The position numbers and the translations under genes were made by a program. The notes beneath the pieces are model-generated. The model did no database searches and was not told the DNA's origin. It saw only the letters and a list, made by a program, of their open reading frames with translations. Positions 40,101 through 49,673 of a stretch of DNA of 64,000 nucleotides are shown here, piece by piece (the stretch's first letter is position 1; each line of letters opens with the position of its first letter). Origin of the DNA: a virus (lineage: Duplodnaviria > Caudoviricetes); the IMG/VR virus record IMGVR_UViG_2909979649_000004; one strand, 5' to 3'.

Positions 40101-40110
40101 GGAGAATGAA

Positions 40111-40305
40111 ATGCAACTTAAGTGGGTTAAGCTAAATAGGTATTTAGAACTATCTGGTGATACTCGGGATGCATTCGCTAATAAACAAAAGAAAGGTGTT
40201 TTTTTACGTGATCGTGAGTATCGAACCTGTAGTGATGGGCGAGTTTGGGTAAACCTTGAGGCAGTAGAAAAGTGGGCTCAAAAAAGTGAACCGAGGAGGC
40301 ACTAG
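40111..40305 (+). CDS. xis: Excisionase
   Basis: KWVKL..Y..G..DGRVWVNLEAVEKW; overlaps int start. Confidence 0.85.
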   Translation: MQLKWVKLNRYLELSGDTRDAFANKQKKGVFLRDREYRTCSDGRVWVNLEAVEKWAQKSEPRRH

Positions 40306-41486
40306 TGAGCAGTAAGTTGCCTGTAGGTGTCAGTATTCGGCAAAATAACCGAACAGAGTCTATTCAAGTTGCCTTTTCTTATCGTGGTGTTCAGTGTCGT
40401 GAGACGCTTAGGCTTAAGCCAAATAAGGCCAATATTAAATATGCTGAATCGTTGAGATCAGAAATCGTTAGCAAAATTAACAGAGGCTTATTTAAATACA
40501 GTGAATATTTTCCTGAATCACCTAGATGTAAATTATTTGGTGAGGAGACTCGTGAAAATATCACTGTAGCTGAATTGCTTAATGAGTATACCGCTGATTT
40601 ATCTCGTACGGTTGAGCCCTCAACTGAGCTTCGTTACCGTCGCTCGATAGAAGGGCAACTACTGCCGGAGTTTGGTGATATATTAGCTACTGAGCTAACG
40701 CCTAAGCGTATTCGTCAGTGGATTAAGTCAAAGGAGTGTAAGCGTAAGACAATTGCCAACCATCTTATACCCTTGGTTAAAGTACTTCGGCTGGCTGTTG
40801 TAGATGGAATTATTGCTAAGTCACCTATGGATTCTATCTCGCTTGATGATGTAGTTCATAAGGAGGCTAGGAGAAGTGACTATAAAATTGATCCATTTAC
40901 ACCGACTGAAATTGAAATACTGTTAAAGGCCATGGAAGGGCAGGTACACAATGCATATAAATTTGCCTTTTTTACGGGTGTTCGTACCAGTGAGCTAATT
41001 GGCTTGATGTGGAATAAGGTGGATTTACCCAGAGGTAAAGTGCTGATTGATCAAGCTAAGGTAGAAAGGCAGATGAAGGGTACTAAAACCGGTGAGAAAG
41101 GGGAGAGGGAGATAGCTTTATTTCCGCCAGCATTGCAGGCTATTCAGGATCAACTGAAGTATACAGGGGAGGGCGAATACGTCTTCCATAACCCAAGGAC
41201 TAATCAACCTTGGGATGATGATCAGCAAATAAGAAAGCGGGCGTGGATGCCTGCAATTAAAAGTACTAGGTTGCGTTACCGTAATCCTTATCAGACCAGA
41301 CACACCTTTGTTTGCTTGATGATTGCCAGGAATGAAAACCTATTCTGGATTGCCAGCCAAATGGGGCATCAGGGTATTGAGATGATCAATAGACATTATG
41401 GCAAGTTTATTGAGGAAGCTGGGGCGCAAAGTTCTTATGAGCCTAATCATGATTGGGGGGAGTTTGTGGTGAGTTCAGATGTGTGA
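40305..41486 (+). CDS. int: Tyrosine integrase (arm-binding N-terminal domain)
   Basis: F.YRGVQCRETL, DPFT, TGVRTSELIGL.W, YQTRHT, QMGH, HY. Confidence 0.95.
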   Translation: MSSKLPVGVSIRQNNRTESIQVAFSYRGVQCRETLRLKPNKANIKYAESLRSEIVSKINRGLFKYSEYFPESPRCKLFGEETRENITVAELLNEYTADLSRTVEPSTELRYRRSIEGQLLPEFGDILATELTPKRIRQWIKSKECKRKTIANHLIPLVKVLRLAVVDGIIAKSPMDSISLDDVVHKEARRSDYKIDPFTPTEIEILLKAMEGQVHNAYKFAFFTGVRTSELIGLMWNKVDLPRGKVLIDQAKVERQMKGTKTGEKGEREIALFPPALQAIQDQLKYTGEGEYVFHNPRTNQPWDDDQQIRKRAWMPAIKSTRLRYRNPYQTRHTFVCLMIARNENLFWIASQMGHQGIEMINRHYGKFIEEAGAQSSYEPNHDWGEFVVSSDV

Positions 41487-42049
41487 AACCATCTTATATC
41501 GCTTCACTGTTGTGCTACAACTGCTGTCGGAATTTATGGCGGTGGTTGAACAGGCTTTTTTAGATTTGTCTACTCATGGCCATACGCCTGCTGGGCCTAC
41601 TAATAAACTCAGCCTAATACAGCAGGCGGATAGTATTAATGAGCAGAATTCTGGTTTTAAAATAATGCTTTAATAAATATAAAATAAAAATGATAGCAGT
41701 TTTTGGAATAGATTAATTAACTTTTTATATTTTACTTGGCCTTGAAGTTGCTTCTGCCAAAAATTTAAACCCTATCTTATGTTTCTATAGTTATTGTGGA
41801 AGTCAATACATGGCTCTTCTTGCTGTTGTGATAAGAGTAAACCTTCAGTAATTACTAAGGAAAGGGAAGAAATTGTTTATAAGAAAATAGCTAAAACTAG
41901 TCATTAATGCTAAGCAATAGTCGCAGACGAAATTGATCTGTCTTGCAATTATAACTTATTTTAAGCTTTATTAATTACAGCTATTGATGTTTGAAAGTTT
42001 ATTCGACTATACTTAAGTTGAGGTGTTTCTGAATTTGCAAGGAGTGCAT

Positions 42050-42691
42050 ATGAAAGTAGTACGTAAGTCATTGGGATTAGATTTGGTGGGAACTTATCAA
42101 GGATTATCGCTAGGAGCATATGAAGTTACAAATCAAGATGGTCAATTGTCTTTTCATGCTGTTGTATATAACCCTCTTATTTTTGATACAAATCTAGTGC
42201 CTTTTTTTAGAATAAATTCAGCTTGTTTTAGCGCTGATATATTCGGTGATAATCGTTGTGATTGTAATTATCAGTTGCAACAAACTATGAGATTTTTTTT
42301 AGAAAATCCTGGTCTTATGATATATCATTTTAATCACGAAGGTCGAGGGGTAGGCTTTGTCAATAAAATAGAAGCATATAAACTTATGAAGAAAAAAAAT
42401 ATTGATACTTTCGATGCTCATAAATTACTAGGGTTGCCTGAAGATAGCCGGAATTACTATTATGCTGTTTTAATTCTAAATAATTTAAACATAAATCGAG
42501 TTAATCTTATTACGAATAATCCACAAAAATGTACATACTTAAAGACTCATGGGATTGATGTCTTAGAGGTAATACCTATAGTCAGTCAATGTAAAGAGCA
42601 TGAAGCATGTCTTTCGTCAAAAGTTATTCACCAAAATCACCTACATTATAAAAACTTATCACCCAAAATATCTGATCTATCTCTTAATTAA
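42050..42691 (+). CDS. GTP cyclohydrolase II-like protein (divergent RibA family)
   Basis: RINSAC..DIFGD.RCDC..QL, EGRG.G..NKI.AY, D.R.Y, LITNNP.K; SD GGAG. Confidence 0.85.
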   Translation: MKVVRKSLGLDLVGTYQGLSLGAYEVTNQDGQLSFHAVVYNPLIFDTNLVPFFRINSACFSADIFGDNRCDCNYQLQQTMRFFLENPGLMIYHFNHEGRGVGFVNKIEAYKLMKKKNIDTFDAHKLLGLPEDSRNYYYAVLILNNLNINRVNLITNNPQKCTYLKTHGIDVLEVIPIVSQCKEHEACLSSKVIHQNHLHYKNLSPKISDLSLN

Positions 42692-42788
42692 TAATATTTA
42701 TTTGTCGAGGTTGACTATGCAATAGGTTTTATCAAGTAATTTAATAACTATTGAATTAGTGTAGGAAACAGTTAGCAGAGACCAGATT

Positions 42789-43511
42789 ATGCAAAATCAT
42801 ACTCTATTACTACTTGGCGCTAATAGCTCATTAGCAGGTGCATTTTTAAAACAAAAGAAAAAAATTTCTCCTATATACATATTAGGTATAGATCAACATG
42901 AAAAGGAAAATTTTTCACAGCTATCAAATTATATGCAATTTAATTTTTCTTGTACATCAATGCAGGATGTATGGCAAAATCTTCCATTGGACTTTACCCA
43001 TGAATTAATATTTATCAGCTGTATAGGGCGGTTTGGTCATCAAGGGAGTCAGGTGCAAGGTCAATCACCGCTGTTAACAAAAGAGGTGCTGGAGCAAATT
43101 AATATCAACTTGGTGTTTGTAACATCGTTTTGCTGTGAGCTTATTAATCGATGTATTAATTATAACTGCAAATGTCGTATTGTAATTGTTGGGTCATCAG
43201 CTTCCTGGGTAGGTAGTAGAGATATTGGTTATGGTATTGCTAAGGCAGGTCTAAATGGATTGGTGATTAGTTTGTCAAAGTCATTTGCTGTTCAGGGAAT
43301 CACAGTGTTAGGAGTGAATCCAGGAATTTTTGATTCTTTAATGTCAAGAAATGTCTCAGTTGAGCGTCAACAGTGTGCTATTCAGTCAACACATATAAAA
43401 CGGGCAGGTCAGGTTGAGGAAATTGCAAAGGTAGTTAGCTATGCGGCATTTGAGGCACCTGATTATATGACAGGTGCTATTTTACCTGTTAATGGAGGGC
43501 AATATACTTAA
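42789..43511 (+). CDS. Short-chain dehydrogenase/reductase
   Basis: LLGANS.L, VGSSAS, YGIAK (YxxxK), VNPG, YMTG..LPVNGG. Confidence 0.88.
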   Translation: MQNHTLLLLGANSSLAGAFLKQKKKISPIYILGIDQHEKENFSQLSNYMQFNFSCTSMQDVWQNLPLDFTHELIFISCIGRFGHQGSQVQGQSPLLTKEVLEQININLVFVTSFCCELINRCINYNCKCRIVIVGSSASWVGSRDIGYGIAKAGLNGLVISLSKSFAVQGITVLGVNPGIFDSLMSRNVSVERQQCAIQSTHIKRAGQVEEIAKVVSYAAFEAPDYMTGAILPVNGGQYT

Positions 43512-44083
43512 TGATTGATTTTTTGCTTATTCATTTGGTGATCTTCAATAAGTTGCTGAATAAGCAATTTTGGCTGTTCGTTAAAATATAGACGACTTTC
43601 ACTTGGCTTTTGAAATGCTTCAAGTAAACTTGGGAGAAATTCAGTCATACCACCACTGCCAGTAAGTACACCAATTGGTTTACCAATATCATAAGCAATT
43701 GTAAATTCATTGAGAGTTCCCCATCGACCACTTATAAAAACAGCTGCATCGCAGTGGCTTACTGCAACTACATTACGATACTTTAAGCAAACTTGATGTA
43801 TCTGTTTATGTGTAAAATCATTTGGAATATAAATGAGCTGATCATAATAACTTACAGAAGTGCCCATTATTGACTCGTGAAGCTTTTCATGCGTGACAGC
43901 AGTACATCCAATCGTTCCGCCATTATACTTTTTAGCACCTTTTATTGCTGCATAAGGTAGTCCTTGGCAGGCTCCAGTAATAAGTGTTGCACCGGCTTCT
44001 GCGATGAACTGACCAAGAAGTATTGCTTGTTGCTCTAATCCTGTAGAGATTCCTGCAGCTGAACCGAAAACTCCAATAATCAT
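43508..44083 (-). CDS. LOG/SLOG-family nucleotide-binding protein
   Basis: GVFGS, TGACQGLP.AA.KGA, RN..DA.V.ISG.WGTLNE..KPI..L.GSGG. Confidence 0.85.
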   Translation of the reverse strand: MIIGVFGSAAGISTGLEQQAILLGQFIAEAGATLITGACQGLPYAAIKGAKKYNGGTIGCTAVTHEKLHESIMGTSVSYYDQLIYIPNDFTHKQIHQVCLKYRNVVAVSHCDAAVFISGRWGTLNEFTIAYDIGKPIGVLTGSGGMTEFLPSLLEAFQKPSESRLYFNEQPKLLIQQLIEDHQMNKQKINH

Positions 44084-44807
44084 TTAGTGTTCCCTCACAG
44101 TTCTTGTTTTCACTATGTACTAATTAGCGTATACATTTAATTATTGTGTCACATGTATCGCTTATAATTAAACTACTGGATGCAGATTTTTGTTTCTGCT
44201 GAAAAGCATCGTATCTTTAATGTATAAAGGGCTGAAGAGCAAGAACTCTCAACTATATATATTTAACAACTTGCAGCTTTTCTAACCTTAGTATAATCGA
44301 GCTATTTCACTAACACCTACCTTTACGTATATCAGATTATTTTCTTATTAATGTCACATCACTTCCATTCACCCGAAGGCTGTGACCGTTATATAGGAGG
44401 GTACTGGAATCTAGGAGGTTGGAAAAAGCACTCATCCTCCACACCTGCGAGTTTTATGAAAATTTATTTGTGGTAATAATTAACAGCTAAGCCTTGTTGT
44501 TTAATCGTTTTAGGAATTATTTATTATTTTCACAAAGTGAAAAATTATCTCAGTTTAAGTAAAAAATACATTTTCAGTGAAAATTATTTATTTTAAGAAA
44601 ACAATAATTGTGTCGTATTCAATACAAGTAGCATTCTTCTGTTTTTAGGCTGTAGTGTTTAACCCTAATTTCTTGTCTTACTTTTCCAAGCAGCAGGCTT
44701 GTCATGATCACCTCCACACAAATATCTATTGAGATGATATGATGTTGTATGTAAGTGCCGTTTAAATAATGGCCAATTCTATGTAAATCAGTTAGTTCAG
44801 TGCATCA

Positions 44808-44916
44808 TATCAACATTATTCTAGTAATAAGTTTGTGACTTGGTTAAAATATATTTGGTTGTTATACGTCAATGCGACGTAGCATTTTGCGTCAGAGAGG
44901 CGTTCATTAAAAGTTA
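44808..44916 (+). other. attI-like site (copy A)
   Basis: 109-bp repeat, ~96/109 identical to 45990-46098; homology ends exactly at GTTA (44913). Confidence 0.75.
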
Positions 44917-48312: not shown

Positions 48313-49467
48313 CTACCACTCATAATTAGGCTTGTATTTATTATCGTCTCCAGCCTCTTCAATAAACATTCCATAATGCCTGTTAATCATCTCAATGCCT
48401 TGGTGGCCCATTTGGCTTGCTATCCAGAATAGGTTTTCATTTCTTGCTATAAGAAGGCATGCGTAGGTATGCCTAGTTTGGTACGGGTTCCGATAGCGTA
48501 GGCCACTTTTTTTTATCGCAGGAATCCAAGCACATTTTCTAATTTGCTGATCATTTTTCCAGGCTTGGTTTGTTCGTGGATTATGAAACACAAAATCGTT
48601 GTTGTTCGTATAGTTAAACTGAGATTCTAGGGCTGATATAGCAGAAGGGAAGAGATGTATTAATCTTTCACCCTTGGTACCTGTTTTGGTGCCTTTGAGT
48701 AGACCTTCTACTTTAGCCTGGTCAATCAAAACAGACTTGCCTTTTAAGTTAACTTTATCCCAAGTAAGTCCTATGAGTTCACTAGTTCTAACCCCTGTAT
48801 AAAAAGCAAACTGAAAAGCATTTTTTACCTGTCCCTCCATGCTTTCCAGTAGCTGTTGTATTTCTGCAGGTTTAAAAGGGTCGACTTTAAAATTACTGAC
48901 TCTAGCATCTTTATGAATGAAATCATCAAGAGATATTGCATCCATTGGTGACCTGGGAATAATAGCGTCTACAACAGCCAGCCGAAGTGCCTTAACTAAG
49001 GGGATAAGGTGGTTGGCAATGGTTTTACGCTTACAATTTTTCGATTTAACCCATTCACGAATATGTTTCGGTGTAAGCTCTGTAACGAGAATTTCTCCAA
49101 ACTCTGGAAGTAGCTGACCTTCAATAGACCGTTTATAGCGCAGAGCTGTTGAAGGCTCTACAGTCCTGTGAAGGTCATTGATATATTCTTTTAGTAACTC
49201 TGCAACTGTAGTATTTACTCGAGTACATTCACCAAATACTTTACACCGTGGGGATTCTGGAAAGTAATCACTGTATTTAAATATGTGACGTTCTATTTTC
49301 CCAATAATTTCTGCTCTAAGCGCTTCAGCATAACGTAAATTTGCTCTAGTTGGCTTTAGCTTTAGGGTTTCTCTACATTCAACCCCTCTATACATGAAAG
49401 CAATCAGAATAGACTCTGATTGCTTATGTTTTCTTATCCTTATTCCTCTAGGAAGCGATGAGGTCAT
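48313..49467 (-). CDS. int: Tyrosine integrase, close paralogue of 40305-41486
   Basis: Same motifs and long identical blocks (e.g. RNENLFWIASQMGHQGIEMINRHYG). Confidence 0.95.
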   Translation of the reverse strand: MTSSLPRGIRIRKHKQSESILIAFMYRGVECRETLKLKPTRANLRYAEALRAEIIGKIERHIFKYSDYFPESPRCKVFGECTRVNTTVAELLKEYINDLHRTVEPSTALRYKRSIEGQLLPEFGEILVTELTPKHIREWVKSKNCKRKTIANHLIPLVKALRLAVVDAIIPRSPMDAISLDDFIHKDARVSNFKVDPFKPAEIQQLLESMEGQVKNAFQFAFYTGVRTSELIGLTWDKVNLKGKSVLIDQAKVEGLLKGTKTGTKGERLIHLFPSAISALESQFNYTNNNDFVFHNPRTNQAWKNDQQIRKCAWIPAIKKSGLRYRNPYQTRHTYACLLIARNENLFWIASQMGHQGIEMINRHYGMFIEEAGDDNKYKPNYEW

Positions 49468-49661
49468 TAATGCCTCCTAGGTTCACTTTTTTGAGCCCAT
49501 TTTTCTACCGCTTCAAGGTTGACCCATACACGCCCGTCACTACAAGTACGATACTCTCTGTCTCGGAGGAACATACCGGTTTTTTGTTTGTTAACAAATG
49601 CATCACGAGTATCACCAGATAGTTCAAGGTATTTTTTTAATTTGACCCATTTGAGTTGCAT
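49467..49661 (-). CDS. xis: Excisionase
   Basis: 59/64 aa identical to 40111-40305. Confidence 0.88.
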   Translation of the reverse strand: MQLKWVKLKKYLELSGDTRDAFVNKQKTGMFLRDREYRTCSDGRVWVNLEAVEKWAQKSEPRRH

Positions 49662-49673
49662 GATATTTTCTCC

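What the first reader, a model, noticed from the sequence alone, without database searches (positions are those of the whole stretch)
42050..44083. GTP cyclohydrolase II + SDR + LOG cargo trio beside the integrase
Seen: low-GC cluster between int and att. The RibA-like enzyme keeps the three Zn cysteines but has RINSACFSAD for the usual RxHSECxTGD; SDR and LOG genes converge with a 4-bp overlap; no other rib genes. Known: GCH II opens the GTP imidazole ring, LOG proteins are nucleotide phosphoribohydrolases/binders, SLOG domains occur in Thoeris, and int-adjacent slots often hold defence genes. Inference: an undescribed nucleotide-depletion/signalling defence system, or a mini-pathway to a pyrimidine/pterin-like metabolite.
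Basis: partly seen in the sequence, partly recalled or inferred. Interest (0 to 1): 0.7.

Follow-up and report, generated by a model that had tools for sequence, protein, structure and literature searches.

The report
Divergent GTP-cyclohydrolase-II/SDR nucleotide module in prophage cargo
The three genes are real and belong together: they are a horizontally acquired copy, missing one gene, of a rare and undescribed enzyme module built around a divergent GTP-cyclohydrolase-II-like enzyme and its own dehydrogenase, which most likely transforms a nucleotide rather than making riboflavin or acting as a recognisable phage-defence system.

Summary
In detail: GCH-II-like gene 42050-42691 (+), SDR 42789-43511 (+) and SLOG-cluster-4 gene 43508-44083 (-), at 34% GC against 41% for the window.

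- **Origin.** The 2.2-kb unit (41987-44147) occurs once in this genome and is absent from two congeners. It is 79-84% identical in DNA to a four-gene cluster in three Zooshikella species, where housekeeping genes are only 70-73% identical. The window copy has lost the fourth gene, a type-2 pyrF; about 65 nt of its 3' end survive upstream of the SDR.
- **The enzyme.** The cyclohydrolase belongs to a well-supported, rare subfamily with the motif RINSAC. It keeps the zinc cysteines and the counterparts of the residues that E. coli RibA uses for pyrophosphate release. It replaces five or six residues that are invariant in RibA.
- **Linkage.** In 25 metagenome loci the subfamily is followed by the same SDR in 17 of 19 informative cases, and one protein fuses the two. 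Recurrent accessories are pyrF, pyrB, a dTMP-kinase-like gene, an HD_3 nucleotidase (fused twice), a methyltransferase and SLOG.
- **Defence.** The three proteins gave no significant PADLOC match, and the subfamily was absent from viral contigs, PLSDB and INPHARED.

Best reading: a mobile nucleotide-transforming (ring-opening plus redox) module, probably linked to pyrimidines. Substrate and product are unknown.

The parts
41987..44147 (.). The horizontally shared unit: the whole stretch homologous (79-84% nt identity) to the Zooshikella cluster. It is single-copy in this genome and absent from two same-genus genomes.
   Evidence: blastn; the genome search dna (G001 and G002 have only canonical GCH II hits).
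41984..42013 (+). Candidate sigma-70-like promoter (TTGATG-18-TATACT) at the left edge of the conserved unit, 37 bp upstream of the ATG. This is weak evidence only.
   Evidence: 9 of 12 matches; the number of sites in the region is not above the shuffled expectation.
42050..42691 (+). GCH2v: a divergent GTP-cyclohydrolase-II-like enzyme of the 'RINSAC' subfamily (213 aa, P0001).

The Zn cysteines C59, C70 and C72 are kept, as are R54, R99, R134 and K160 (counterparts of E. coli R49, R94, R128 and K154) and Y110 (counterpart of Y105).

The canonical invariants H51, E53, S62, Q108 and N118 are replaced.
42726..42788 (+). Deletion scar: a non-coding remnant of the last ~22 codons of the module's type-2 pyrF gene. 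About 810 bp of pyrF (L016:5640-6450) are missing between window 42648 and 42726.
   Evidence: junction sequences; pyrF identity.
42789..43511 (+). Dedicated classical SDR (240 aa).

The N-S-Y-K tetrad is invariant in the module's SDR family, and an invariant Asp at the end of beta-2 suggests NAD preference (the cofactor rule is from general SDR knowledge).

Its N-terminal half is too divergent for the Pfam models.
   Evidence: fusion protein P0128.
43508..44083 (-). SLOG cluster-4 (LOG-like) protein of 191 aa, convergent with the SDR with a 4-bp overlap.

The motif GRWGTLNE has R120, G122 and E126 invariant in the aligned SLOGs.

It is 84-86% identical to the Zooshikella copies and 44-47% identical to the SLOGs next to GCH2v in metagenome loci L040, L041 and L043. 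It is 39-40% identical to gammaproteobacterial SLOG cluster-4 proteins that are not linked to GCH2v.
41479..41673 (+). Context: 3' remnant of a tail-spike-like gene, 24 bp after the integrase stop. The intact gene lies in a sister element, where the equivalent cargo slot holds Hsp20 genes.
40305..41486 (+). Context: tyrosine integrase of the left prophage. A 72-73% identical integrase (48313-49467, -) faces it across 6.8 kb.
44254..44916 (.). Context: a segment repeated elsewhere in this genome and in a congener. Earlier notes of this scan read it as an intI stump plus attI of a fossil integron.
   Evidence: matches at G000:C1:1358925 and in G001; earlier notes e1-5943676 and e1-5943672, not re-derived here.

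Best explanation
The locus is a horizontally acquired, pyrF-deleted copy of a conserved mobile enzyme module. The obligatory core of that module is a neofunctionalised GTP-cyclohydrolase-II-type enzyme (GCH2v) plus a dedicated SDR.

Shown:
- GCH2v forms a distinct clade.
- It keeps the zinc site and the counterparts of the RibA residues for triphosphate binding and nucleotidyl transfer, including the Arg128 counterpart.
- It has lost five or six residues that are invariant in true RibA, including the His and Glu flanking the first zinc cysteine.
- It is almost always followed by, and once fused to, the same SDR.
- The variable accessories belong to families that, by annotation, act on nucleoside 5'-monophosphates (SLOG phosphoribohydrolase-like, HD_3 5'-nucleotidase, dTMP-kinase-like) or belong to pyrimidine metabolism (type-2 pyrF, pyrB, udk).

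Inferred mechanism:
1. GCH2v takes a nucleoside triphosphate other than GTP, most likely a pyrimidine (uridine-type) nucleotide. It releases pyrophosphate and uses zinc-activated water to open or hydrolyse the base, giving a product at the monophosphate level.
2. The SDR then oxidises or reduces that product, either at the now-labile ribosylamine or at the released carbon fragment.
3. In this locus the SLOG protein cleaves the N-ribosidic bond, giving ribose-5-phosphate and a small nitrogen-rich base fragment.

The output is a specialised metabolite or a catabolic intermediate, not riboflavin. In this genome the module rides in a variable cargo slot of a decayed prophage and fossil integron.
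For: - Domain identities.
- GCH2v scores below every RibA equivalog cut-off (143.1 against 148; 117.8 against 205.85).
- Clade of 61 rows with SH-like support 98. Group-specific residues, 56 variant against 61 canonical sequences. Only 17 representatives at E<1e-30 among 1.8 billion proteins.
- Linkage: SDR immediately downstream in 17 of 19 informative metagenome loci, pyrF in 8, SLOG in 3. Fusion GCH2v-SDR (P0128) and HD_3-GCH2v (P0130, P0288).
- Neighbours: pyrB is a true ATCase by TIGR00670 (345 bits against 237); pyrF passes TIGR02127 (218-225 bits against 110.6); dTMP kinase, HD_3 and udk are also present.
- Zooshikella has a housekeeping type-1 pyrF plus the module's type-2 copy.
- Purifying selection on all three genes, dN/dS 0.10-0.15 against the Zooshikella copies.
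- HGT: 79-84% nt identity against 70-73% for dxs/ribA, and absence from congeners.
- The host already has a complete rib operon elsewhere.
Against: - No biochemical data exist; substrate, product and the SDR's step are inference.
- The Tyr105 counterpart is kept in only 71% of the subfamily, so the chemistry may differ among members.
- The pyrB linkage comes from five loci that may be phylogenetically related.
- The role I assign to the lost His/Glu (guanine recognition) rests on my memory of RibA and RibBX work, not on a tool result.
- The window copy lacks pyrF and the HTH regulator that accompany it in Zooshikella, so it could be partly disabled here.
- A few loci lie next to defence or conflict genes.
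Confidence: 0.5

Rival explanations
1. A GTP-derived specialised pyrimidine metabolite. GCH2v still uses GTP and makes the ring-opened diaminopyrimidinone nucleotide. The SDR reduces or oxidises it, and SLOG (or HD_3) releases a free triaminopyrimidinone-like base or nucleoside, either a redox-active molecule or an antimetabolite. The extra pyrF would then be a self-resistance or flux gene.
For: - The full RibA catalytic core is kept.
- A PrmA/RsmC-like methyltransferase recurs in three loci; by my reading such enzymes methylate exocyclic amino or amide nitrogens.
- MFS and ABC transporters lie next to the module.
- The distribution is sporadic and includes the cyanobacteria Okeania and Trichodesmium.
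- GCH II fused to a RibD_C reductase exists in Actinomycetota, showing the logic of 'ring opening then reduction'.
- pyrF is a second copy in Zooshikella, and it was lost in a host whose own pyrF is already type 2.
Against: - His51, Glu53, Gln108 and Asn118, invariant in all 61 canonical sequences compared, are replaced.
- The strongest neighbour signal is pyrimidine, not purine or pterin, metabolism.
- No deaminase or pterin/lumazine enzyme recurs.
Confidence: 0.22
2. An anti-phage or anti-competitor system working through nucleotides. It would either deplete a (d)NTP or make a toxic nucleotide analogue, with viperin-like logic: the tmk-like kinase would re-phosphorylate the analogue, and SLOG or HD_3 would detoxify it.
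For: - The window copy is prophage and integron cargo.
- Mobile-element genes lie in several loci: an integrase, TrwB/TraG twice and NikA twice.
- GajA lies 3.3 kb from the module in L053, a SIR2-like protein lies in L046, and TCAD9 lies in L037. In L037 and L042 a 1571-1664 aa protein is also adjacent, for which the only pointer is a weak Atlas match to a conflict-context histidine-kinase family.
- Kinases next to nucleotide-modifying defence enzymes are known for prokaryotic viperins (from memory).
Against: - The three proteins gave no significant PADLOC match.
- No member was found in viral contigs, phage records or plasmids.
- There is no sensor or regulator in the conserved core.
- The module is stably chromosomal in three Zooshikella species, with GC equal to its flanks.
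- It is embedded after pyrB in five loci.
- The sister cargo slot holds heat-shock genes, so the slot is not defence-specific.
Confidence: 0.13
3. A bacterial counterpart of the fungal URC uracil-catabolic pathway. A GCH-II-like enzyme (URC1-like) opens the uracil ring of a uridine nucleotide, an SDR (URC8-like) reduces malonate semialdehyde to 3-hydroxypropionate, and SLOG cleaves ribosylurea phosphate to urea plus ribose-5-phosphate. This is a specific sub-case of the best explanation.
For: - The pairing of a GCH-II homologue with an SDR, and the pyrimidine gene context.
- Outline of the URC pathway from PMC7530994. The identities of URC1 as a GCH-II homologue and URC8 as an SDR are from my memory of the primary papers.
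Against: - In the tree GCH2v is not sister to the eukaryotic 'HDxC' GCH-II-like clade; its nearest neighbours are multi-repeat Mycobacteriales proteins.
- No DUF1688 (URC4-like, assignment from memory) was found in the four genomes, though the search had no positive control.
- A catabolic module placed downstream of pyrB and pyrF is odd.
- No fungal URC1 sequence could be compared.
Confidence: 0.1
4. A spare riboflavin gene (a moron ribA), or a decaying, functionless remnant in this genome.
For: - Pfam calls the protein GTP_cyclohydro2.
- pyrF and the HTH regulator were lost on transfer.
- GC has drifted down to 34%.
Against: - The protein scores below the RibA equivalog cut-offs and RibA invariants are replaced.
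- A full rib operon is present elsewhere.
- All three ORFs are intact, with dN/dS 0.10-0.15.
- Natural pyrF-less versions of the module exist.
Confidence: 0.05

Closest known systems
GTP cyclohydrolase II (RibA, PF00925; E. coli structure 2BZ0/2BZ1)
   Same: - Same fold and domain: Pfam 117 bits, and the Atlas model has TM 0.84-0.93 to GCH II clusters.
- The three Zn cysteines of the CX2GX7CXC motif are kept, though the window and Zooshikella copies have Ala in place of its Gly.
- The counterparts of Arg49, Arg94, Arg128 and Lys154, and in this copy Tyr105, are kept.
   Different: - Separate clade with support 98.
- His51->Asn, Glu53->Ala, Ser62->Cys/Asp, Gln108->Met and Asn118->Phe/Met/Tyr/His, with a one-residue insertion before HEGRG.
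- Scores below the NCBIfam RibA cut-offs.
- Never found with rib genes here; instead coupled to an SDR and to pyrimidine or nucleotide enzymes.
Fungal URC pathway (URC1 GCH-II-like enzyme, URC8 SDR, URC4, URC6)
   Same: A GCH-II homologue is teamed with an SDR in a pyrimidine context. The logic is ring opening of a nucleotide base followed by a redox step and release of a ribosyl-nitrogen fragment.
   Different: No orthology is shown. GCH2v is not sister to the eukaryotic GCH-II-like clade seen here. No URC4-like gene was found. The accessories (SLOG, HD_3, pyrF, tmk-like) are bacterial and different.
LOG / SLOG cluster-4 proteins (PF18306; TIGR00725; PDB 1RCU)
   Same: PF18306 at 1.3e-26. A Rossmann-like SLOG with a GxGxxG start and a G-R-x-G-T-x-x-E motif resembling the LOG PGGxGTxxE catalytic motif.
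   Different: Scores below the TIGR00725 cut-off (51 against 106.9). It forms a module-specific subgroup, 44-47% identical to other GCH2v-linked SLOGs and 39-40% identical to unlinked ones. No SIR2 or TIR partner is present, unlike Thoeris ThsA.
GCH II fused to a RibD_C reductase (Actinomycetota) and the RibD/Rib7 reductase step of riboflavin synthesis
   Same: A ring-opening cyclohydrolase is physically coupled to an NAD(P)-dependent reductase. This is a precedent for the two-step logic proposed for GCH2v plus SDR (fusion P0128).
   Different: The reductase here is a classical SDR, not a DHFR-like RibD_C domain. No deaminase or downstream riboflavin enzymes are present.
Nucleotide-based defence enzymes (prokaryotic viperins, dCTP deaminase, dGTPase)
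   Same: Small, mobile enzyme genes acting on NTP pools, sometimes next to nucleotide kinases.
   Different: No sequence relation and no PADLOC match. No phage-borne or defence-island enrichment is demonstrated. Many copies lie in housekeeping pyrimidine operon contexts.

Membership tests
GTP cyclohydrolase II, RibA sensu stricto | Matches the PF00925 domain above the gathering score | tested here: met
   117.2 bits against 23.3.
GTP cyclohydrolase II, RibA sensu stricto | Passes the curated RibA equivalog/subfamily cut-offs (NF001591, TIGR00505) | tested here: not met
   143.1 against 148, and 117.8 against 205.85.
GTP cyclohydrolase II, RibA sensu stricto | Zinc site CX2GX7CXC | tested here: met
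   C59, C70 and C72 are invariant. The Gly of the motif is Ala in the window and Zooshikella copies and Gly in 55% of the subfamily. Motif taken from PMC10366380.
GTP cyclohydrolase II, RibA sensu stricto | Arg128 nucleophile for pyrophosphate release, and Tyr105 for ring opening | tested here: met
   R134 is invariant. Y110 is present in the window copy and in 71% of the subfamily. The Arg128 role is from PMC10366380; the Tyr105 role is from my memory of Ren et al. 2005.
GTP cyclohydrolase II, RibA sensu stricto | The other RibA-invariant residues (His51, Glu53, Ser62, Gln108, Asn118) | tested here: not met
   These are 98-100% conserved in 61 canonical sequences and replaced in 86-100% of 56 variant sequences.
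GTP cyclohydrolase II, RibA sensu stricto | Genomic association with riboflavin genes, or being the sole GCH II of the genome | tested here: not met
   The rib operon lies 4 Mb away and there are four other PF00925 loci. No rib gene lies in any of the 25 related loci.
GTP cyclohydrolase II, RibA sensu stricto | Converts GTP to DARP, formate and PPi | not testable with these tools
   Needs an enzyme assay or ribA complementation.
Classical SDR (FabG-like) | N-S-Y-K catalytic tetrad and a Gly-rich dinucleotide motif | tested here: met
   N107, S136, Y148 and K152 are invariant in 14 module SDRs, with a GxxGxLG motif at the N-terminus.
Classical SDR (FabG-like) | Passes a FabG or other equivalog cut-off | tested here: not met
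   Best score is 80 bits against a cut-off of 222, and all 25 listed families are below their cut-offs.
LOG / SLOG cluster 4 | PF18306 above the gathering score, and a LOG-like GTxxE motif | tested here: met
   93.5 bits against 26.3. GRWGTLNE has R120, G122 and E126 invariant.
LOG / SLOG cluster 4 | Phosphoribohydrolase activity on a nucleoside 5'-monophosphate | not testable with these tools
   Needs an assay with the module's product.
Known anti-phage defence systems (PADLOC-DB 2.0, including Thoeris) | Any component matches a defence-system model | tested here: not met
   No hits for GCH2v or the SDR. SLOG has only a marginal PsyrA match at E 0.0027. No TIR or SIR2 partner is present in the locus.
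Known anti-phage defence systems (PADLOC-DB 2.0, including Thoeris) | Enrichment next to defence genes or on phages | tested here: inconclusive
   GajA, a SIR2-like protein and TCAD9 lie near 3 of the 22 loci scanned. No member was found in viral contigs, phages or plasmids. The sample is too small for statistics.
URC pyrimidine-catabolic pathway | URC1-type GCH-II homologue orthologous to the fungal enzyme | tested here: inconclusive
   No fungal URC1 sequence was available. GCH2v is not sister to the eukaryotic GCH-II-like clade in the tree.
URC pyrimidine-catabolic pathway | URC4 (DUF1688) present | tested here: inconclusive
   PF07958 was not found in G000 or three Zooshikella genomes, but it rang in no control genome either.

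The most novel reading that the evidence does not exclude
GCH2v plus its SDR make a ring-opened or otherwise altered nucleotide analogue that is used as a weapon, against phage replication (viperin-like logic) or against competitors.

In this reading the module-borne type-2 PyrF would serve as a resistant copy of the target enzyme. The tmk-like kinase, HD_3 and SLOG would activate, export-prepare or detoxify the analogue.

This would be a new class of nucleotide-analogue chemistry carried by prophages, integron-type cargo regions and conjugative elements.
Probability: 0.18. Interest if true: 0.85.

Novelty: new variant of a known kind. Interest (0 to 1): 0.55.

Why it matters
GTP cyclohydrolase II is usually treated as a one-function riboflavin enzyme, and automatic annotation calls all these proteins RibA.

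This finding defines a separate, rare clade with three properties:
- It keeps the catalytic machinery but changes residues that are invariant in RibA.
- It is locked to its own dehydrogenase, by fusion in one case.
- It is wired into pyrimidine and nucleotide genes and moves between phyla and onto mobile elements.

That makes a concrete prediction that is cheap to test: a new nucleotide ring-opening reaction and a new product. It also gives a clean example of a metabolic operon captured and trimmed in a prophage cargo slot. If the product is an antimetabolite or an antiviral nucleotide, it would add a new chemistry to nucleotide-based conflict systems.

Tried and rejected
Contexts of the 15-billion-protein hits, including the Okeania and Trichodesmium genomes, could not be fetched. 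The single genome-contig scan returned only Zooshikella.
- SLOG cluster-4 homologues in 9 of 400 gammaproteobacterial genomes are not next to GCH2v, the SDR or pyrF, so SLOG alone is not a marker of the module.
- The viral contig scan, PLSDB and INPHARED (tblastn) returned only canonical RibA-type hits or nothing.
- PADLOC on the trio gave nothing usable.
- The 'longer' protein search found only one more HD_3 fusion and ordinary RibBA proteins, and no fungal URC1.
- Nine full-text searches found no paper describing this gene combination.
- The SDR could not be assigned to a substrate class. Single-sequence and profile searches against the PDB return generic FabG-like SDRs. My idea that it resembles dihydropteridine reductase was not supported by the ranking.
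- I considered that GCH2v and the SDR might replace dihydroorotase and dihydroorotate dehydrogenase, given the gene order pyrB-GCH2v-SDR. I set this aside because GCH2v keeps the counterparts of RibA's nucleotide-binding residues, and because the module is an accessory, horizontally moving unit absent from two congeners. The presence of pyrC and pyrD in the hosts was not checked.
- The promoter and terminator scan is not above chance.
Full report
**1. What is there**

ORF listing and domain scans confirm three genes:
- 42050-42691 (+): a GTP_cyclohydro2 domain protein (PF00925, 7e-34).
- 42789-43511 (+): a short-chain dehydrogenase.
- 43508-44083 (-): a SLOG cluster-4 protein (PF18306, 1.3e-26), convergent with the SDR with a 4-bp overlap.

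The stretch has 34% GC against 41% for the window.

The genome has four other PF00925 loci. Its complete riboflavin operon (ribA, ribH, ribBA, ribD) lies 4 Mb away. The cyclohydrolase here is therefore neither needed for riboflavin synthesis nor placed for it. It also scores below the curated RibA cut-offs of NCBIfam. PADLOC gives no significant match for the three proteins.

**2. Where it came from**

The window's genome belongs to the family Zooshikellaceae but not to the genus Zooshikella.

The unit 41987-44147 is single-copy in this genome. It is absent from the two other genomes of the same genus and present in all three Zooshikella species searched.

DNA identity to Zooshikella is 79-84% across the unit, whereas dxs/ribA housekeeping DNA is 70-73% identical. 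This fits horizontal transfer.

In Zooshikella the cluster has the GC of its flanks. It sits among ordinary chromosomal genes (Cache sensor, DTW protein, an HTH_26 regulator, a SpoIIE-type phosphatase, STAS).

Zooshikella has a fourth gene between the cyclohydrolase and the SDR. It is a type-2 orotidine-5'-phosphate decarboxylase that passes the TIGR02127 cut-off. In the window about 810 bp of this gene are missing, and the last ~65 nt of its coding sequence survive as a non-coding scar just upstream of the SDR start. The trio is therefore a deletion derivative of a quartet.

All three remaining genes are intact and show dN/dS of 0.10-0.15 against the Zooshikella copies.

**3. Local setting**

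The unit lies in the 6.8 kb between two convergent tyrosine integrases that are 72-73% identical.

A 3' remnant of a tail-spike-like gene starts 24 bp after the left integrase. The intact gene is found in a sister element of the same genome. There, the equivalent slot, between the spike gene and a segment that earlier notes of this scan read as an intI stump with attI, holds Hsp20-type genes instead.

So the trio occupies a variable cargo slot of a decayed prophage and fossil-integron region. The slot is not specific for defence genes, and I could not verify an att site.

**4. The cyclohydrolase is a distinct subfamily**

An exhaustive search of 1.8 billion representatives gave only 17 proteins at E<1e-30. 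The closest share the motif R-I-N-S-A-C-[FY]-T-G-D in place of R-V-H-S-E-C-L-T-G-D.

In a tree of 203 domain sequences these form one clade of 61 rows with support 98. Its nearest neighbours are 988-992 aa Mycobacteriales proteins carrying three GCH-II-like stretches. It is not sister to the eukaryotic 'HDxC' clade.

I compared 56 variant with 61 canonical sequences, using E. coli numbering by alignment to the genome's own RibA, which is offset by two:
- Kept: the three zinc cysteines; the counterparts of Arg49, Arg94, Arg128 and Lys154; and the counterpart of Tyr105 in 71% of the subfamily, including this copy.
- Replaced, although 98-100% conserved in canonical sequences: His51->Asn, Glu53->Ala, Ser62->Cys/Asp, Gln108->Met, Asn118->Phe/Met/Tyr/His. 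There is also a one-residue insertion before HEGRG.

The zinc motif and the Arg128 role are described in PMC10366380. That the lost Glu and His recognise guanine is my inference.

The pattern is that of an enzyme that still binds a nucleoside triphosphate, releases pyrophosphate and uses zinc-activated water, but on a different base or with a different outcome.

**5. Gene linkage elsewhere**

A pattern scan of metagenome contigs returned 25 loci. tblastn and ORF clustering give the following:
- The same SDR lies immediately downstream in 17 of the 19 loci with enough flank.
- Type-2 pyrF lies in 8 loci, usually between the two genes.
- A SLOG 45-50% identical by tblastn to the window's lies directly upstream in 3 loci.

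One protein (P0128, 457 aa) is a GCH2v-SDR fusion. Two proteins (P0130, P0288) are HD_3-GCH2v fusions.

Okeania and Trichodesmium cyanobacteria carry the subfamily. In Okeania sp. SIO2C9 a type-2 pyrF hit and the GCH2v hit are each reported on a contig of 37,258 bp, possibly the same contig.

Other recurrent neighbours:
- a true aspartate carbamoyltransferase directly upstream (5 loci, with carB and argH);
- HD_3/YfbR-like nucleotidase (4 loci);
- a dTMP-kinase-like gene (3 loci);
- a PrmA/RsmC-like methyltransferase (3 loci);
- uridine kinase (1 locus);
- MFS and ABC transporters.

The module's SDRs keep the N-S-Y-K tetrad and an invariant Asp at the end of beta-2, which by general SDR knowledge suggests NAD. 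Otherwise they look like generic FabG-type enzymes.

The SLOGs keep a G-R-x-G-T-x-x-E motif.

**6. Defence or metabolism?**

Against defence:
- No significant PADLOC match for the three proteins.
- None in 2.9 M viral contigs, 72,556 plasmids or 50,697 phage records.
- Stable chromosomal residence in Zooshikella.
- Placement after pyrB in five loci.

For a conflict or mobile context:
- The window's prophage and integron cargo slot.
- An integrase, two TrwB/TraG genes and two NikA genes among 112 neighbouring ORFs.
- A full-length GajA 3.3 kb from the module in L053, a SIR2-like protein in L046 and TCAD9 in L037. In L037 and L042 a 1571-1664 aa protein is also adjacent; its only pointer is a weak Atlas match to a conflict-context histidine-kinase family.

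This is what one expects of an accessory, mobile metabolic module. It does not show a defence role, but it does not exclude one.

**7. Most likely mechanism**

Shown: a conserved two-enzyme core, with accessories that belong by annotation to families acting on nucleoside 5'-monophosphates or to pyrimidine metabolism.

Inferred:
1. GCH2v converts a nucleoside triphosphate other than GTP, probably a pyrimidine nucleotide, into a base-opened or base-altered monophosphate, with release of pyrophosphate.
2. The SDR carries out the next redox step.
3. SLOG (in this locus), HD_3 or a tmk-like kinase (in other loci) then removes the base fragment, removes the phosphate or adds a phosphate.

The fungal URC pathway is the closest functional analogy: a GCH-II homologue plus an SDR degrading uracil nucleotides to ribosylurea and 3-hydroxypropionate (PMC7530994; gene identities from memory). 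Orthology is not shown, and a URC4-like gene was not found.

A GTP-derived pyrimidine product remains a serious rival.

One observation fits a role of the module's PyrF as either extra or resistant decarboxylase activity, but it is a single case. Zooshikella has a type-1 housekeeping pyrF plus the module's type-2 copy. The window's host has a type-2 housekeeping pyrF and has lost the module copy.

**8. Verdict**

The interpretation as a defence system is weakly supported. The alternative of a small nucleotide-derived pathway is better supported.

The module as such (the RINSAC-type GCH II with its SDR) appears undescribed in the literature I could search.

The window's copy is a trimmed, horizontally acquired instance in prophage cargo. 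The scan had noted this same stretch from an overlapping window, but not the module on other DNA.

Noticed in passing
window 41479-41673 (+); L062:1151-2101 and L062:3300-5250: The 64-aa ORF right after the integrase stop is the 3' end of a tail-spike-like gene. The intact copy lies in a sister element about 34 kb downstream in the genome. There the equivalent cargo slot carries three Hsp20/IbpA-like genes instead of the trio.
   Followed up: partly
L063:553-1374 (G000:C1:3012052-3012873); Zooshikella G003:C334, G004:C2, G005:C3: The window's genus uses a type-2 PyrF (273 aa) as its only OMP decarboxylase. The sister genus Zooshikella uses a type-1 PyrF (234-238 aa open frame) and has the type-2 enzyme only inside the module.
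   Followed up: partly
P0131, P0169 (988-992 aa, Mycobacteriales MAG): These giant proteins carry three GTP-cyclohydrolase-II-like stretches and are the nearest neighbours of the RINSAC clade in the tree. Their function and context are unknown.
   Followed up: no
P0125, P0151, P0175, P0227, P0256 (green algae, Mantamonas): A monophyletic eukaryotic GCH-II-like clade has the motif RVHD[AQ]C..TSEV. It includes a 600-aa protein with a tandem duplication of the domain. It may correspond to the URC1-type enzymes, but I could not confirm that.
   Followed up: no
L059:948-1295, L060:8001-8348, L061:2459-2851: In three peat/soil metagenome loci the match to the query covers only residues ~36-165. They have no SDR and a different conserved neighbourhood, with proteins of 301, 1214 and 737 aa. 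They may represent a separate module.
   Followed up: no
L037:8092-14459 and L042:4257-9251: A 1571-1664 aa protein lies next to the GCH2v-pyrF-SDR-methyltransferase module in two loci. In L037 it is accompanied by a TCAD9-domain protein and an integrase. It has weak STAS_2 and phosphoribosyltransferase hits, and the Atlas search gives a weak pointer to the HisKin-conflict family (score 0.85).
   Followed up: partly
L038:2470-3414 and L038:6443-7735: A class-I Trp/Tyr-type and a class-II Asp/Asn/Lys-type aminoacyl-tRNA synthetase gene flank the GCH2v-pyrF-SDR module in one metagenome locus. They could be plain housekeeping neighbours or extra copies of the kind seen in antibiotic gene clusters.
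   Followed up: no
window 40305-41486 (+) and 48313-49467 (-), with 40102-41027 / 48745-49670: Two tyrosine integrases, 72-73% identical in DNA, with their upstream excisionase-like genes form a 926-nt imperfect inverted repeat facing each other across the cargo region. Recombination between them could invert the 6.8-kb segment.
   Followed up: no
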